64,000 nt of DNA, taken from assembly GCA_964106645.2 (NCBI GenBank), contig OZ067045.1, one strand, 5' to 3'. This stretch comes from Podarcis pityusensis. Its lineage: Eukaryota. A program made the position numbers and the translations under genes. Below the pieces are notes generated by a model. That model made no database searches and was not told where the DNA came from. It saw only the letters and a program-made list of their open reading frames with translations. Shown here piece by piece: positions 41,681 to 49,524 of the stretch. How positions within the stretch are numbered: position 1 is the first letter of the stretch; each line of letters begins with the position of its first letter.

Positions 41681-41728
41681 TTCATCAAAGTATTTGTATA
41701 CTCCTTTCTCACAAAACATCAGTGCAGT

Positions 41729-42163
41729 TGTAGTGGTTCTAGGGGTTGCTCGTGCGTAAGCCGGTGCAAACACCTGGCTGGGTTGCCTGAGTGAACCTTT
41801 CCTGTCCGGACAGCCACTCACCCGTGGTTGTCTCAGTCGCTGGCAGAATCCGTCAGTGGGCGTTTCTTAAACTTCTTCCAGCAAAGAAGTTCTTTGACGC
41901 CTAGTCTCCTCCTACTCTCTCTGCGCGAAAGCCTTCTGCGCAAGGAGGGCGTAGGCAGCGGAGGACCTCTACTCTCCCCGCTAGTCCCCGGCAAGGAGTC
42001 ATGGGACCGCCTCGCTGCTTCCCCCATCTGCCCCCCTTCTCCACTGGTGCTACGCTGATTCTCTTCCCCAGAAGATGGGCTGCCTCTCCCAATCCCGGGA
42101 CGCTCTCTGGAATACCTCTGGATTTTGCTCTCTCCCTCCGGCACTGATGGCAGTTCCCTGACA
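41729..42163 (-). repeat. 3' LTR (435 bp) of the Gypsy element
   Basis: On the minus strand it starts TGTCAGGG immediately after the PPT and ends ...CCACTACA (TGT...ACA termini). Both ends match the two remnants of the 5' LTR. Confidence 0.93.
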
Positions 42164-42177
42164 TCCACCTCCTCCTC
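41833..42177 (-). CDS. Open reading frame across PPT and U3 of the 3' LTR (~114 codons); probable original C-terminus of Pol
   Basis: Part of ORF 41833..42291. It is +1 relative to the pol frame, and removing one G from the G6 run at 42182-42187 fuses it to pol (…RGGGGGPEEEVDVRE…). It ends in a Pro then Arg-rich block (PPLPTPSLRRRLSRRESRRR). Confidence 0.55.
   Translation of the reverse strand, partial: EEEVDVRELPSVPEGESKIQRYSRERPGIGRGSPSSGEENQRSTSGEGGQMGEAARRSHDSLPGTSGESRGPPLPTPSLRRRLSRRESRRRLGVKELLCWKKFKKRPLTDSASD
42164..42177 (-). promoter_or_regulatory. Polypurine tract GAGGAGGAGGTGGA
   Basis: 13/14 purines, immediately 5' of the TG that starts the 3' LTR. Confidence 0.85.
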
Positions 42178-45100
42178 AGGACCCCCCACCCCCACCCCTG
42201 GCACGATTTTCCGGTACAACCTCCTCTCTCTCCTCGGTCGACGATGCGGGGAATCCCCTGAAGGAACTGTCATCATCTTCTGAGGATTCAAAACCAGCCA
42301 CCCATCCGCTCAGATTTCTTCCCGCTGGTTGAACCTCCCAGTCTGATCCTTCTCCCTCGGACACCTCCCCTCCCTCCTCTTCGGAGGCAGGAAAACCCAC
42401 AAAGTCCCCTTCGTCATCTGTGGGTCCAAATTCTTCCTCCCAGAATCTAGCTAATGGTTTGGGCTTATCCGGGAACAAACCGTGGAATTCTTCCACCAGA
42501 TACCCGTCAGTGATTGATTCAGCAGGGACCCAAGTGTTTTCAGACCTAGGTTCCCCCTCCCAGGCTACCAAGTACTCTACCTGGCGACCTCGCCACCTTG
42601 AATCGAGTATTTCCGTGGCTTTGTTACAGTGTTCCCTCTCCTCTACCTGTGGGTGGGTGGTAACCCCTCCCTCCCGTCCCGGGAATTCCCGCCCCTCCCT
42701 GTAAGGTGAAAGTAGGGACCTATGGAACACCGGATGTATCTTCATGCTGTCAGGCAACTTGAGTTTAAATGCCACGGGGTTAACCTGCTGTATTACCTCA
42801 AAAGGCCCCAGCCGCCTAGGCTGCAACTTCTTGCACCCTCACTTTAGGGGCAACCCTTGGGATGACAACCACACCCGGTCTCCCACCCGTATGGCCTCCC
42901 CCTCCCGACGGTGCCTGTCCGCCTGCCTCTTGTAAACTTCCTTGGCCCGCTCCAAGTTCAGCCTGAGTTGCTGGTGTAAGGCCTCCATTTCTTCCACCAA
43001 TTGCTCAGCCGCAGGTACACTCCATCCTTCCTCCCCCCGCCCCGAGAAGGCCCTGGGGTGACACCCGTAATTGGCCATGAAAGGGCTCATTCCCGTGGAC
43101 ACGTGTTCTGCGTTATTGTACGCAAATTCAGCCAAAGCTAATTTCTCTACCCAATCGTTCTGTCTCTCGCTGACATAGCAGCGTAGGTACTGCTGGAGTA
43201 TACTGTTCGCTCTTTCGGCTTGTCTGTTGGTTTCTGGGTGCCTCGCCGTCGATAAGCTCACCTCGACCTGTAGCAAGCTCATGAGTCTCCGACAGAACCG
43301 GGAAGTAAATTGTTTCCCACGATCCGAGATTACCCTCAATGGAGCCCCATGCAGTCTAAAAATGTGATCCACAAACAGCCTGGCTGTCTCCTCTGCCGTT
43401 GCTGCATGTGAGCAAGCTACAAAATGGCACATTTTAGTCAGTAGATCGACCACTACCATGACCGCTGTCTTTCCCCTTGACTTGGGCAGATCTGTCATAA
43501 AATCAATGGACACCACCTCCCAGGGCCTTTCTGGTGTAGGTAAGGGTTCCAGTAGCCCCGCGGGGGCAGCCCTTTCCCCCTTTGCCCTCTGGCATCGGTC
43601 GCACCCTCGTACATATTCTCGTACGTCTTCCCTCACCTTTGGCCACCAGAACTGCCTGGTGACAAGTAGCAAGGTCTTGTGCTGTCCAAAGTGACCAGCT
43701 GTTGGGTTGTCATGGAGTTGTCTAAGTACCTTCCCCCTCAAAGTCTCCCCTGGTACATACAGCGCCCCCTTATAGTACAGTAGCCCTTCCTTTTCCTCAA
43801 ACCCTCCATTGACTTCCTTTCTATCCCTGAGTTCCCTGATTTTTGTCTGAGCAAACTCATTGTCTCTGGTGAGCCCTGCCAGTTCTCATTTCCCAACCAA
43901 CGCTCCCACACACACACACCAGTCCTCGGGGAACACGTGCCTGGTCTATGGTGGCCCCTCTCCTTCCATGTACTCCGGTTTCTGGGAGAGAGCATATGCC
44001 CTTACATTTTCCTCTCCCGGCACGTAACGGATCTCAAAGAAAAACTTGGCGAACTCCTGGGACCATCTGATCTGTCTCTGGTTGAGCACTCGCGCGGTCC
44101 GCCAGTATTCCAAGTTCTTGTGGTCAGTTTGGACCTGGATCTTGTGCCGCGCCCCTATTAATAGATGTCTCCATTGCCGAAATGCTGCATAGATCGCAAG
44201 CAGTTCTCGGTCATACACCGTGTAGTTTTGCTCCGACTTGCTCAGCTTCCTAGAGAAAAAGGCACACGGCCTCCAGTTCTGCTTGGCACCGGGCTGCAAA
44301 AGGACCGCTCCAATCGCGCGGTCGGACGCGTCCGTCTCCAGTCTCATGGGTTTCTCCGGATCCATGTGCAGGAGCTGCTCTTCCGAGGCGAACGCCTTCT
44401 TCAGTTTTTCAAAGGATTGCTGCGCATCCTCTGTCCACACTAACTTCTTTTTGCTACTAGGACAATCCGTTATGGGCGCTGTCAAGTGAGTGAAGTTCTT
44501 TATGGACTTCCTGTAGAAGTTGCTGAAGCCTAGGAACCTCTGCACATCCTTTCTGTTTTTGGGGGCTTTCCATTCCAGCACTGCCTTCACTTTGCCCAGG
44601 TCCATGGCTAGTCCTTTGTCTGACAACCTGTACCCCAGGAACTCGACCTCCCTGGCGTGGAATTGGCATTTTTCCAGCTTGACCCACAACTGATGATTCT
44701 TCAATCTCTGTAGCACCTCCCTGACGTCTCTGACGTGTTGCTTTTCATTGTCCAAATAGATTAAGACGTCATCCAAAAAGGCTACGCAATTCTTGTACAG
44801 CAGGGGCCCCAACACATGGTGCATGAAGGCTTGAAAGCAGGCGGACCCCCGATTGTAATCCAAATGGCATGACTAAGTACTCAAAAGCCCCCAGGGGGGT
44901 GAACATGGTCATTTTCCATTCGTCCCCCTTCCTTATCCTAATCAGATTGTATGCTCCCCTGAGGTCCAGCTTGGTAAAAACCTTCCCCTGCCTCACACGT
45001 GTCAAAATATCGTCAATCCTGGGCATTGGGAAAGTCACGGGTTCTGACACCAGGTTTAGGGCCCGGTAATCCACGACTAATCTGGGCTGATTTGTCTCTT

Positions 45101-45715
45101 TTTTGTCCACAAAGAACACTGGACTGCCTCCCTCTCGCTGAAGACCTCCTTCAAATCAGCATATTGTGTTGGCACCTCCCTTTTTTGCTCCAGGGCCACC
45201 CCAGCCACCCTGGCCACAGTCCTTCTTGGTTCCTTCCCTCCCAGACAGTGTTCTAAGCAGTAAGCTGACCCAAAGGTGACCGACCCCTGATGCCATGACA
45301 CCACTGGGTCATGTATTGCCAGCCAGCTCATTCCCAGTATTATCGGGGGTCCTGCCAGCGTGGCCACGTGAAAGGCAATGGTTTCCGTGTGCCTGGAGAC
45401 ACTCATTCGCATTGGCGGTGTCTGGTGTGTCACTTCCCCTCCCAGGAGTTCCCTGCCATCGATGGTGGTCACCTGCAAGGGAAAATCTCGTGGCAACAGG
45501 TGGAGCTAGTGCTCCAGAGCGAAGTCTCTGCTGAAGAAATTACACGAGCTGCCAGAATCTAGCAGCCCCTCCACTTTGACAGGGTGCCCATTTGGGAGTT
45601 CTAGCACCACCTCTATGGCTATAGCTGCCTTGGGAGGGTCAGGCTGGGGCACTTCTATTGGTTGCTGGCCTGGCTGCTGCCCCTGCTGGTTGGCAGCCAG
45701 GCGTTGTCGTTTCCC
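42176..45715 (-). pseudogene. pol: Pol polyprotein (protease, RT, RNase H, integrase, GPY/F, chromodomain, acidic tail), inactivated
   Basis: PR LLDSG (DSG 45551-45559). [30 protein letters not shown]. RNase H TDAS/DRELLAI/TDHKNL. IN HHCC (LHDNPTAGH...CDRC) and D,D,E (SIDF, SDRG, AERAN). GPF module and chromodomain at about 42470-42625. Lesions: stops at 45506-45508, 43946-43948, 43886-43888 and 42839-42841, a deletion with frameshift near 45125, and a frameshift near 44855. Confidence 0.95.
45646..45715 (-). other. Programmed -1 ribosomal frameshift signal (G GGA AAC + H-type pseudoknot)
   Basis: Heptamer GGGAAAC at 45715-45709 in the correct gag phase, then a 6-nt spacer. Stem 1 is a perfect 10 bp (45702-45693 with 45677-45668). 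Loop GGGGCA (45683-45678) can pair with downstream UGCCCC (45651-45646). The -1 frame is open into the protease. Confidence 0.9.
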
Positions 45716-46671
45716 TGCACCGGCTCTTCCTCCCCCTTATCGTCGTGGCCTGCAGCCTCCATCATGCCTTGCCAGGCTTTTCGTTGAGGGCAGACCTTTG
45801 CAAAATGTCCCGGTCGCTGACAGAGGAAACACTTCTTGGTAGTTTTCCACTCCTTTTTCCGACCTTCACCAGCGTTTGAAACTTCGCACACACACGCTCC
45901 ATCAATTTCCATCGGCTCCGCCGCCTGGGAAGGCTCCCTCGGCATCTCCGGAATGTGGTTGTCATGGAAACGTTCCGCCCTTATCTCCCGCTTCTCCTGA
46001 GCCCACACTTCCTGGCGTACACCGATCGCAAGCACAGTCTTTGTGAGTTCATCCATCGACCGCGGGCGGGGCGCTCGGGACAACTCGTCTTTCACTTCGG
46101 GGGCCAAACCCGCTTCAAACAACATTTGTACTGGTTCAGAGTCCAGATCCCACCCGAGCTTGTGGACTAACATCACAAAACACGACCAGTAGTTTCTGAC
46201 GGACAGGCTCCCCTGCTTGCACCCCATCAGCTCCCTCCGTGTCACGCTTTGCTCAATCTCGCTGGAGAACATCGCGTCCATTCCCTGGTAGAATTTCTTA
46301 AGATCTTTCAAAGCGTCATTCCCCGTTGCCATCAAGGGCCTGATCCATTCGCGCGCCCCATCCTGCAGATGTCCAACAATGTAAGCCACCCTCTCCCCGT
46401 CATCAGCAAAGTCATTTTTCTGCAATTCCAAAGCGTACTGAATTTCCGTTCGGAAGGCATTGTAGTCTTGGGGCTCTCCACCAAACTTGTGTACCAGCCC
46501 CGGGACCTTCCTCCCTATCGGGGTGGCTCTGACCTGTGCATCCTGAGCCCGTCTCTCCTCCATCCGCGCAGACAGGGTAGCGACATGCGCCTCCAGGTCT
46601 CGGTTCCTCTCGACCAGACCTCGCACCATGGCTTCTTGCTCTGTCTCTCCGACCGGCCCTGTTTGGCTCAT
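45655..46671 (-). CDS. gag: Gag of the Gypsy element (338 aa, uninterrupted)
   Basis: ATG start. N-terminal coiled-coil-like segment, Sushi/PEG10-type capsid motifs (KFGGEPQDYNAF...VAYIVGHLQDGAREW, KQGSLSVRNYW) and CCHC zinc knuckle CFLCQRPGHFAKVC. Confidence 0.95.
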   Translation of the reverse strand: MSQTGPVGETEQEAMVRGLVERNRDLEAHVATLSARMEERRAQDAQVRATPIGRKVPGLVHKFGGEPQDYNAFRTEIQYALELQKNDFADDGERVAYIVGHLQDGAREWIRPLMATGNDALKDLKKFYQGMDAMFSSEIEQSVTRRELMGCKQGSLSVRNYWSCFVMLVHKLGWDLDSEPVQMLFEAGLAPEVKDELSRAPRPRSMDELTKTVLAIGVRQEVWAQEKREIRAERFHDNHIPEMPREPSQAAEPMEIDGACVCEVSNAGEGRKKEWKTTKKCFLCQRPGHFAKVCPQRKAWQGMMEAAGHDDKGEEEPVQGNDNAWLPTSRGSSQASNQ

Positions 46672-46711
46672 CGTGCTGCCTCTCCGGTGCTGCGCACAAG
46701 CAACGTCAGGG

Positions 46712-46722
46712 ACTGACGGATT
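46712..46722 (-). promoter_or_regulatory. Self-priming primer binding site (AATCCGTCAGT)
   Basis: Starts 2 nt after the LTR end, lacks the TGG of tRNA PBSs, and is exactly complementary to 11 nt inside the LTR (ACTGACGGATT, 41857-41847). Confidence 0.85.
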
Positions 46723-46724
46723 GC

Positions 46725-47077
46725 TGTAGTGGTTCTATGGGTTGCTCGTGCGTAAGCCGGTGCAAACACCTGGCTGGGTTTCTTTTTCTTTTTTCCATGT
46801 GCTTGTTAGGCAAAGACTAAATCTCTTTTTTTAAAAAATAATATTTATTACTTTCCAACAAAATAAACATACATAGAAAAAGAAAATAAACAATACAATA
46901 CAAAAACAATACCTAACACTAAACTAACAAAAACAATTTAAACTAAGAAAACAAAACAAAAACGATTTAAACTAAGAAAACAAAACAGAAACAATTTAAA
47001 ACACATCAGATAAATTCAATCTTTCATTCACTTATTTCCATGACCTCCTCACACCTCCCTTTTTGTATTCCCTGACA
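46725..47077 (-). repeat. Disrupted 5' LTR: only the first ~10 bp (47068-47077) and last 56 bp (46725-46780) remain
   Basis: Direct comparison with the 3' LTR; the interior is replaced by unrelated AT-rich sequence. Confidence 0.9.
46781..47067 (-). mobile_element. LINE (probably L1-clade) 3'-UTR fragment plus ~40 nt of extra sequence replacing the interior of the 5' LTR
   Basis: The minus strand is T-rich, with AATAAA followed by an A-tract (~46824-46849), then a short unique stretch and a second A-rich tract next to the LTR remnant. Composition resembles the L1 3' UTR at 40575-40790. Confidence 0.6.
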
Positions 47078-49524
47078 GCAGTGAACATTCATCATAAACT
47101 AATCATAATCTCTGACTCATGGCCATGTTGGCTGGGGCTCATGGGAGCTCTAATGCAGCTATACCTGGAGACCCAGAAGCTATGTGTTTGTTATGCATTT
47201 GTATGAGAAACATGGTTGGTTCAATACTTTTGCATTCATTTTCATTACATTTTTCTTGTCTTTCTTGTGGTGGCTGTGGGAGCAGAGCAGATTTCAGTCA
47301 TCGCTACTGCCAACAGCTGTCTTGTTTTCCCAGAATGCTCCATCTATTGTATTGTTCTGAGGTATTTCTTTTTCTGAGGGGTGGCAATGGCAGTCCAAAT
47401 AAAGTTTTTAAAAAGGCTTCTGATTGTCCAGAATGGCAAAATATCTAGGGCATTCTGGGAAAATAAAATAGCAGCCACCAGGAATAGTCTTGGGCCCATC
47501 AGCTCTATCAGGAACTGGCATGATTTGGCAACGCCAGATGCAAGAGGAGGAGGAGCAGATTGGGAGGGTGGCTGGAAGGGATAGTAGAGAAAGACCTTCC
47601 CCTTGTGATTCTAGATGTCAGAAGGGAGGGAGCATCATGGAGAGAGGAGTCCTTTGACCAACCAAAGAGAGGGGCTTAACAGGAGGCGGTGGTGGCAGAG
47701 CTGGAGTAGAAGGGCAGGAGACTGCCTTGTTGTCAAGAATCAGGTGCTTCCTTCATAGCTGGGATCAGATGCGCCTGCCCCAACAGCGCATGGGTTTCTT
47801 GCACAGCTTGTCTCATCTTTTGAAGCTTGGCAGAAGGGCCATGCCAAATGCTCGGACATCGTCATGTCTTCTGTTCAGTTATGAATTTCTTGCCTTGCTC
47901 ACATACTTTGGCATCTTGACTTCTGGACCTTTGTTCTTGATGTTAAACCTGAGTTTGGTTCTCTTCCCTACTTGGGAGTCTGGCACACCAGTGTCACCTC
48001 CTCTACCACCACCACCGATTCCAGAAAAAGGCAAAGTCACCTCAAGCAGGCATGATTATTAATATGTACCACTATGAATAATAAGAGATGTACCCGTTCA
48101 TACTTATTTGTTCATTGTGGAATTCCTTTTGGAATGAATGGATTTTGAACTCATCCCTAGTAGTCACACCTGAGAGGTGAGATGAATAAAGCTGGTAGAG
48201 GAAGGGAGGTTAATGGGGGTCTCCTCCAATAGTCTCTTGGCAAATGTCTTTTTCAATCTCTTTCTAATCAGGAAAGAAGTTGCTTGTGAATTAACAAGAG
48301 CTCTTATTCCTCTTTGCCAAAAACAAGACCTGGCACAGTTTAATCCCCTTCCCTCCAAGGAGCTCAGGGCAGCATATGTGGTTCTCCAAGGCCCTAACAC
48401 GAGCCAAATCCGGAAGGATGCAAAATGGCCTCCTGCAAGAGTGTGCCTGGAAAATGCCGTCGGATGAAGATGAATAAAATAGCTTTATAAACAACAGTGA
48501 TTGTAAAGAGTTCTGTTTCTGGAAATTTGGCAGCTGATTTGTGGATTTACAGTGACTTAAGACTGCAAAATGGCAGTTTGTGAGTAGTCTTGATTGTGAC
48601 TAGATCTTGTGGATTCTAGTCAAATGGTCCTCTGGCGACCTTTATCAAAAGTCTCCAAAATATACCCTCACTGCAGGGCCGGACCAGCCAAGAAGCAAGG
48701 TGAGGCAACCGCCTCAGGCAGCAGGATCCACAGGAGCAGCAGATCTGGGTTCCAAGGAATGCCTTGCCTGCTACTGCCGCTGCAGTAGCCGTGACTGCTG
48801 CCAGTGTGCTCCTTGGAGGCCAGGTCTGCCCCCCAGTGCCACTTTGACATTTTGCCGAATAGGAGTTGCTGCTGGTCTTCCCCTACCCCCTACCCCCGTT
48901 CCCTCCTGCCTTACTTCTGATGTAGATCTTTACTCCCCACTTGATGTAGATCTTCCCTCAACCCTTCTTCCCTGGCCAGGGGACGCACACACACCATTTT
49001 GTGGTTCACCTCAGGTGCCAAAATGTCTTGGGCCAGCCCTGCATAGGATTGTCGCCTGGAGGAAACAGAGATTTGATACAGACAGTGCTCTCTTTTTAGG
49101 AAAAATGGTGCCGGTCCTCACCATGAAGTTGTTACAGTAAGTGTCACACGTTCAACATTTTTTGGGGGGTGCCAGTACTGCGTGCCCTTGACTACCCACA
49201 GAAAAAAGTGTTGGGTACAGCAGGGGTAACCAAAGTGATACCCTCCAGAAGTTATTGGACTCCAGCTCCTATCAGCTCTGGCCAGCAGTGCCAAACATCA
49301 TGAATGGGAGCAGTAGTCCAACAATACCTGGAGGGCACCATATTGGTGACACCTGGGATGCAGACATGGAGATTTCAGGTTGGCTCCTGCAGTTAAAATT
49401 TCCGCATCCCCAGTTTCCCATGTGGCAACCCTTGTCACCAGGGCAGTTTACAAAACCAACATATCAGAAACAATCACATTTTATTTCAATTGCCTTTTTT
49501 TGTATAGTCCTCCCTACCAATGCT

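What the first reader, a model, noticed from the sequence alone, without database searches (positions are those of the whole stretch)
46693..46752. tRNA-independent self-priming structure of the Tf1 type
Seen: the PBS (minus 46722-46712, AAUCCGUCAGU) has no TGG and pairs perfectly over exactly 11 nt with LTR sequence ACUGACGGAUU (41857-41847 in the intact LTR). In addition, U5 CGCACGAGCAAC (46752-46741) pairs with leader GUUGCUUGUGCG (46704-46693) as a 12-bp stem with one G-U. Established: S. pombe Tf1 primes reverse transcription with the first 11 nt of its own transcript, helped by a U5-leader stem, and this is proposed for the Tf1/Sushi group. Inference: this reptile element self-primes and its transcript starts at the base equivalent to 41857. 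Caveat: the only TATA-like sequence (TTTAAGAA) is about 14 nt upstream, closer than usual.
Basis: partly seen in the sequence, partly recalled or inferred. Interest (0 to 1): 0.7.

Follow-up and report, generated by a model that had tools for sequence, protein, structure and literature searches.

The report
Self-priming retrotransposon family in a lizard
This broken copy of a lizard jumping gene has a primer site that matches its own terminal repeat rather than a transfer RNA, and related families keep the match with different letters, so these elements likely start copying themselves with the first bases of their own RNA, a trick proven in yeast Tf1 and already proposed for vertebrate relatives.

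Summary
Confirmed. The element is a Ty3/gypsy chromovirus (47077-41729, minus strand, 5-bp target duplication). Its primer site (46722-46712) has no TGG and is the exact complement of LTR bases 41857-41847; the 12-bp U5-leader stem is real. In 22 representatives of related families in this genome the primer site matches its own LTR at 10-11 of 11 positions in 20, against 0 of 398 cross-family pairs, and 11 different perfect pairs occur. In one young family the LTR and primer-site variants track each other in 58 of 59 copies. The primer site is almost always followed by C and then a variable 3-5 base patch, the likely footprint of copying the RNA cap plus untemplated bases; this places the RNA start at the 11-mer without RNA data. 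Corrections: this copy's own 5' LTR has lost the 11-mer and promoter, and TTTAAGAA at -14 is not conserved. The start site and cleavage were not observed. Self-priming is already described for the Tf1/sushi group, and this scan noted it in other genomes, so this is a new member of a known kind with unusually strong covariation evidence.

The parts
47078..47082 (-). left target-site duplication ACTGC
   Evidence: same 5-mer right of the 3' LTR
47068..47077 (-). first 10 bp of the 5' LTR (TG start)
   Evidence: identical to 3' LTR start at 42163
46781..47067 (.). unrelated 287-bp repeat with an A/T-rich tail replacing the 5' LTR interior (promoter, predicted start and self-primer lost); likely a LINE 3' end (inferred)
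   Evidence: 77-91% hits in 11 other loci, no LTR similarity
46725..46780 (-). last 56 bp of the 5' LTR (U5), ends in CA
   Evidence: 55 of 56 identical to 41784-41729
46741..46752 (-). U5 arm of the U5-leader stem
46723..46724 (-). 2-nt spacer GC between LTR end and primer site
   Evidence: GC or GT in relatives whose LTR ends were fixed from LTR pairs or solo LTRs
46712..46722 (-). primer-binding site, 11 nt, no TGG, complementary to the LTR 11-mer
46708..46711 (-). near-invariant C after the primer site (46711) and the following patch that varies among copies; inferred footprint of cap copying and untemplated addition
46693..46704 (-). leader arm of the U5-leader stem
45655..46671 (-). gag (Retrotrans_gag, Ty3_capsid, CCHC zinc knuckle)
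42176..45505 (-). pol in five broken frames: protease-like, RT, RT-RNase H, integrase, SH3 plus chromodomain
   Evidence: the protease piece had no Pfam hit; assigned by position
42164..42177 (-). polypurine tract
41729..42163 (-). intact 3' LTR, 435 bp, TGT..ACA
41847..41857 (-). predicted self-primer (first 11 nt of R); preceded by a pyrimidine, starts with a purine
41833..42309 (-). open frame crossing the PPT and running about 330 nt into the 3' LTR, ending 24 nt after the start of the 11-mer; continuous with integrase in sister copies
41724..41728 (-). right target-site duplication ACTGC

Best explanation
The feature is the primer-binding site and U5-leader stem of a Tf1/sushi-group chromovirus whose primer site is complementary to its own LTR, and the family likely primes reverse transcription with the capped first 11 bases of its own RNA instead of a tRNA. 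Shown in sequence: the 11-bp complement, its covariation across families and copies, the 2-nt spacer, the stem in the window's family, and a C plus variable patch after the primer site. Inferred: transcription starts at the base equivalent to 41857; the 5' end folds onto the primer site, crossing the U5-leader stem (a pseudoknot, the 'pretzel'); the element's RT/RNase H cuts between nt 11 and 12; minus-strand synthesis starts across the GC spacer; the primer stays on and is later copied into the plus strand up to its cap (giving the C) with a few untemplated bases, so the primer site is rewritten from the LTR 11-mer in each cycle. The window copy itself is dead: its 5' LTR lacks the primer and pol is broken.
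For:: own-LTR match 11/11 in 12, 10/11 in 8, 9 in 1 and 7 in 1 of 22 representatives; 0 of 398 cross-group pairs and 1 of 528 downstream control 11-mers reach 10; 11 different perfect pairs; in family D three LTR/primer-site variants agree at nt 2-11 in 58 of 59 5' junctions (45, 7, 6), across different leader backgrounds. C follows the primer site in 30 of 30 (window family), 35 of 35 (family C), 58 of 59 (family D) and 21 of 22 representatives, although the LTR base before the 11-mer is C or T and would template G or A. Behind that C, family C shows 19 different 4-6-nt patches in 35 copies that are 96-98% alike. In family D the primer-site base opposite nt 1 is C in 39, T in 19, A in 1, and both states recur in three sub-lineages, as expected if some RNAs start one base later at G. 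The 11-mer begins pyrimidine|purine in 21 of 22, and TATA-like words lie at -29 to -31 in families B, C and D. No tRNA match over 7 nt for the window site. Chromodomain and clade. In print: Tf1 cDNA retains a copied primer site and carries untemplated 3' bases (PMC11042837, passages); self-priming and the pretzel are common to the Tf1/sushi group (PMC10085805, passages).
Against: No direct start-site or cleavage data. The window family has no TATA-like word at -30 (CTTTGC). In pseudoknot-free folding the primer duplex has mean probability 0.34 in the window family and reaches 0.75 or more in only 12 of 21 representatives, because it competes with the stem; whole-region z-scores are weak (-2.1 to +1.0 in six tested). 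A local hairpin covers the 3' half of the window's primer site. The U5-leader stem beats shuffles in 5 of 6 representatives of groups A and E but in none of the 15 from groups F, G, D and B. The third Tf1 duplex is not evident beyond 2-3 bp. The invariant C could be kept by selection or ancestry rather than written by RT. The tRNA set was partial.
Confidence: 0.88

Rival explanations
1. The primer is the same 11-mer but comes from elsewhere: the R copy at the RNA's 3' end, a second RNA molecule, or a longer RNA cut on both sides, so 41857 need not be the transcription start.
For: Covariation alone cannot tell the source. The window family has no TATA at -30. An earlier scan note (e1-7857552, unchecked) argued this for a marine Gypsy lineage.
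Against: Pairing stops sharply at a pyrimidine|purine step and is followed by C rather than the complement of the upstream base in four families; TATA-like words at -29 to -31 in three families. A primer from a second RNA's 5' end is not excluded.
Confidence: 0.08
2. A tRNA half or another host small RNA primes, and the LTR match is a secondary structural pairing.
For: tRNA set incomplete (22 anticodons). Two related representatives (F2, F3) share 9 nt with the tRNA-Phe 3' end.
Against: Eleven different primer sites each follow their own LTR, down to single-base variants among copies; the window site matches at most 7 nt of any tRNA tested; F2 and F3 lack TGG and are 11/11 to their own LTR.
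Confidence: 0.02
3. The pairing is a conserved RNA structure for packaging, dimerisation or translation control, or a by-product of coding constraint, and not a primer.
For: The 11-mer lies inside the frame that extends integrase into the LTR in groups A, C and G, so the LTR side has a second constraint.
Against: It sits exactly where a primer site must be, no other primer site exists there, and coding constraint does not explain the matching changes in the non-coding leader.
Confidence: 0.02

Closest known systems
Tf1 and Tf2 of Schizosaccharomyces pombe (also Tj1, Tosmo1-3, Tcry1)
   Same: Ty3/gypsy chromovirus, no tRNA primer site, primer site complementary to an LTR stretch at the predicted RNA 5' end, flanking U5-leader pairing (PMC10085805 and PMC4600332, passages); copied primer site and untemplated bases on cDNA ends (PMC11042837, passages).
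   Different: Vertebrate host; Gag has a CCHC knuckle, which the fission-yeast elements lack; a 2-nt GC/GT spacer separates LTR and primer site (Tf1 has none, recalled); third duplex not evident; pol frame runs into the 3' LTR; mechanism here is inferred, in Tf1 it is shown.
Vertebrate Tf1/sushi elements (sushi-ichi, Amn-ichi/ni/san; GyDB V-clade; Butler et al. 2001)
   Same: Chromodomain integrase, RT-RNase H in a clade with fish, frog and lizard elements and nearest to fungal ones outside it; self-priming already proposed for this group (cited in PMC6317226 and PMC10085805, passages).
   Different: A lacertid-like lizard radiation with at least 11 primer variants; the named reference elements were not among the sequences compared; Butler 2001 was not held, so overlap with its examples and figures is unknown.
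Plant Tcn1-clade chromoviruses (REXdb)
   Same: Self-priming predicted in 83% of 1500 elements, 5-bp target duplication, chromodomain (PMC6317226, passages and one supplement row).
   Different: Moss and club-moss hosts.
Plant CRM group A chromoviruses
   Same: Polyprotein frame extends into the 3' LTR (PMC3059260, passages), as here.
   Different: CRM uses tRNA-Met and its extension carries the CR motif; here it follows a chromodomain and overlaps the self-primer.

Membership tests
Tf1/sushi group of chromoviruses | Ty3/gypsy order gag-PR-RT-RH-IN between LTRs with target duplication | tested here: met
Tf1/sushi group of chromoviruses | chromodomain at the integrase C-terminus | tested here: met
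   PF00385 E 2e-10, after PF24626
Tf1/sushi group of chromoviruses | RT phylogeny with fungal and vertebrate chromoviruses | tested here: inconclusive
   inside a 99/98 clade of fish, frog and lizard elements with fungal ones outside; no named reference (sushi-ichi, Tf1) or plant outgroup was in the tree
Tf1/sushi group of chromoviruses | no tRNA primer site; site complementary to own LTR | tested here: met
   (partial tRNA set)
Tf1-type self-priming | complementary LTR stretch is the first 11 nt of the transcript | tested here: inconclusive
   indirect support from the C footprint and initiator context; available RNA reads could not show a start
Tf1-type self-priming | U5-leader duplex beside the primer site | tested here: met
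   window family 12 bp, p=0.007, 11-12 pairs kept in 29 of 30 copies; not significant in groups F, G, D, B
Tf1-type self-priming | third duplex on the other side of the primer site | tested here: inconclusive
   only 2-3 bp predicted
Tf1-type self-priming | RT/RNase H cleavage between nt 11 and 12 and primer retention | not testable with these tools
   needs biochemistry or cDNA end sequencing

The most novel reading that the evidence does not exclude
Genomic copies of vertebrate self-priming chromoviruses carry a readable fossil of their own replication: RT copies the retained RNA primer through the m7G cap (the invariant C), adds untemplated bases (the variable patch) and rewrites the primer site from the LTR each cycle. 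The transcription start, its one-base heterogeneity and primer retention could then be mapped from genome sequence alone in any Tf1/sushi family, and primer sequences drift freely because LTR and primer site are mechanically coupled.
Probability: 0.5. Interest if true: 0.55.

Novelty: new member of a known kind. Interest (0 to 1): 0.38.

Why it matters
Self-priming has been shown by experiment only in fission yeast Tf1 and, in the passages read, is 'implicated' or 'predicted' for vertebrate relatives from single complementary matches. This lizard radiation gives compensatory changes across families and among copies, plus a candidate footprint of the capped primer end, which turns the proposal into specific, checkable predictions (start base, cut site, cDNA end sequence). 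The mechanism itself is not new.

Tried and rejected
RNA reads: no RNA holder was listed as on record. Four raw RNA runs laid on a sister copy's 5' LTR-leader and on a family D junction gave low depth on both strands, mostly 90-95% alike reads ending at LTR borders, and no pile-up at the predicted start; this says nothing for or against. Pseudoknot-free folding of the whole 5' region cannot hold the primer duplex and the stem together and was set aside as a test; free duplex energies of U5 with leader did not separate cognate from shuffled well (5 of 22 below p=0.05), so the contiguous-helix test was used. The search included one flank base and returned only 3' or solo LTRs; one search replaced it. 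TTTAAGAA at -14 as the TATA box: rejected, not conserved. The 8-nt match between the leader and the LTR's first bases: seen only in the window's group, treated as incidental. Copy L358 has a changed 11-mer in both identical LTRs but the old primer site: fits an intermediate, one case, does not separate the rivals. Primary papers (Levin 1995, Lin and Levin 1997 and 1998, Butler 2001, Atwood-Moore 2006) were not held. Searches for a printed account of a cap-derived C after self-priming sites and for self-priming in lizards found none in the listings; the subscription literature and Butler 2001 may hold it.

Full report
Observation. On the minus strand the 5' LTR remnant ends ..ACTACA at 46725, followed by GC and AATCCGTCAGT (46722-46712), with no TGG. 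The exact reverse complement is at 41857-41847 in the 3' LTR, and each occurs once in the window. U5 46752-46741 and leader 46704-46693 form 12 bp with one G-U (p=0.007 against 300 shuffles, z=-4.0).

The element. Pfam gives gag with capsid and CCHC domains, RT, RNase H, integrase, SH3 and chromodomain in gypsy order, with pol broken into five frames. The 3' LTR is 42163-41729, 435 bp, TGT..ACA; sister copies with two LTRs have 5-bp target duplications. The window copy begins at 47077 behind ACTGC, the same 5-mer that follows the 3' LTR. Its 5' LTR keeps 10 bp at the start and 56 bp at the end; 287 bp of another repeat replace the rest. This copy therefore has no promoter and no self-primer of its own, and the pairing describes the family. 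The closest named proteins are from Podarcis muralis (66-87% identity in the top ten such rows), then gecko, Anolis, frog, fish and fungi at about 45-52%, so the host is probably a lacertid lizard (inferred). A tree of 30 RT-RNase H rows puts the element in a 99/98 vertebrate clade with fungal elements outside (no named reference was included, and five of 17 loci offered gave no usable segment).

Copies of the same family. The search found 1469 candidates, 40 scored, 30 fetched. In 25 of the 30 the copy's own 5' LTR holds the exact 11-nt complement, and 29 of 30 keep 11-12 pairs of the stem.

Other families. Gag profile and LTR searches of the same genome gave further families; LTR ends were fixed from LTR pairs or solo LTRs. 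For 22 representatives, degraded ones included, the 11 nt starting two bases after the LTR were compared with the best 11-mer in 300 nt of LTR: 12 matched at 11, 8 at 10, one at 9, one at 7. None of 398 cross-group pairs reached 10, and 1 of 528 downstream control 11-mers did. Eleven different perfect pairs occur, some differing by a single compensated base. The matching stretch lies 127-152 nt before the LTR end in the related groups and 230-250 nt in the distant group B (10-nt match; 52% RT identity). The representatives were chosen by me after viewing the loci, and the script kept only junctions with a GC or GT spacer.

A prediction made in advance. A nested solo LTR suggested the primer of family D; the expected site was noted before the junctions were read. 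Of 70 loci, 59 were 5' junctions as judged by a downstream leader motif. Primer nt 2-11 were complementary to the site in 56, and two parser misses also matched on inspection: 58 of 59, in three variant classes (45, 7, 6). The class follows the LTR 147 nt away rather than the leader variant about 20 nt away, as expected if the site is recopied from the primer. Copies share ancestry, so these are not 58 independent events.

Footprint of the primer's 5' end. The base after the site is C in 30 of 30 window-family copies, 35 of 35 family C copies, 58 of 59 family D copies and 21 of 22 representatives. The LTR base before the 11-mer is C or T and would template G or A. After the C comes a patch that varies: 19 forms of 4-6 nt among 35 family C copies that are otherwise 96-98% alike; minor-allele fractions of 0.27-0.32 in family D against a mean of 0.005 over the last 150 LTR bases. 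It is mild in the window family (26 C, 3 T, 1 A). In family D the site's last base is C in 39, T in 19 and A in 1, with both states in three sub-lineages; a transcript starting one base later, at G, would give this. The single family D copy with G instead of C also has a change two bases before the predicted start in both LTRs, one case only. Tf1 cDNA keeps a copied primer site and has untemplated 3' bases (PMC11042837, passages), and Tf1 RT has strong template-independent synthesis (PMC3035444, passages). That RTs insert C opposite a cap is recalled, not from a call. The reading that the C is the cap copy is inference; selection for a C there is the alternative, and either marks the primer's edge.

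Promoter context. The primer begins at a pyrimidine|purine step in 21 of 22 (the exception is a degraded copy). TATA-like words lie at -29 to -31 in groups B, C and D; most of groups A2, E, F and G have a weaker TATG-like word there, and the window family has CTTTGC. TTTAAGAA at -14 is not conserved, so it is probably not the promoter.

Structure. The primer duplex and the U5-leader stem cross, so standard folding picks one or the other: primer pairing probability is 0.34 in the window family and 0.75 or more in 12 of 21. The stem is significant in 5 of 6 representatives of groups A and E, with changes on both arms, but not in groups F, G, D or B, where only shorter or interrupted stems are seen. 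After the primer, nt 12 is C in 21 of 22 and can pair with the spacer's G, leaving one bulged base at the predicted cut.

tRNA test. Among 51 distinct tRNA gene sequences of 22 anticodons, a partial set, the window site's best match is 7 nt. Two related group F sites share 9 nt with the tRNA-Phe 3' end but lack TGG and match their own LTR fully.

Comparison with what is known. Self-priming and the three-duplex 'pretzel' are described as common to the Tf1/sushi group, citing Butler et al. 2001 for vertebrates (PMC10085805, PMC6317226, PMC4600332, passages). For Tf2, a CAGE and RACE start in the LTR and the self-priming model are described in PMC5341516 (passages). PMC3601003 and PMC5371799 were seen as passages and add only brief mentions. 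The primary papers were not held, so details of Tf1 geometry rest on these passages or are recalled. The scan's own notes list similar findings in five other genomes. It works like Tf1; membership in the Tf1/sushi group is met on anatomy and primer site and is consistent but unanchored on phylogeny.

Verdict. Real, correctly read, and a new member of a known kind. Confidence in Tf1-type self-priming for the family is 0.88. Interest is 0.38, raised by the copy-level covariation and the candidate cap footprint (probability 0.5), for which the searches listed no prior account.

Noticed in passing
window 41833-42309 (minus); L141, L142, L146, L147, L154, L252, L237: The pol/integrase frame crosses the PPT and runs 255-657 nt into the 3' LTR. 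In groups A, C and G it ends 21-24 nt after the start of the self-primer, with a basic stretch and a recurring (L/W)LCW-like motif; in group B it ends about 35 nt before it. Known for plant CRM group A; no vertebrate account appeared in the listing.
   Followed up: partly
window 46781-47067: An unrelated repeat with an A/T-rich tail has replaced most of the 5' LTR; similar sequence sits upstream of truncated gag copies L064 and L070 and in other loci.
   Followed up: partly
L306-L375 (family D): Very young family: 1091 exact matches to a 30-nt LTR-end pattern, LTR pairs with 0-5 differences, dense clusters near the ends of contigs C1 and C2.
   Followed up: partly
L172/L246 and L245: Primer sites share 9 nt with the 3' end of a tRNA-Phe gene just before the CCA position, without TGG; probably chance, unexplained.
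   Followed up: partly
window 46701-46717 (minus): A local hairpin covers the 3' half of the primer site and would compete with the primer; the same bases complement the first bases of the LTR.
   Followed up: partly
L141, L159, L160: Nested insertions inside elements, including solo LTRs of families C and D inside a group A2 copy (L159).
   Followed up: no
G000 contig C19: Most of the old, divergent chromovirus copies with intact junctions lie on this one 38-Mb contig, as on a repeat-accumulating chromosome.
   Followed up: no
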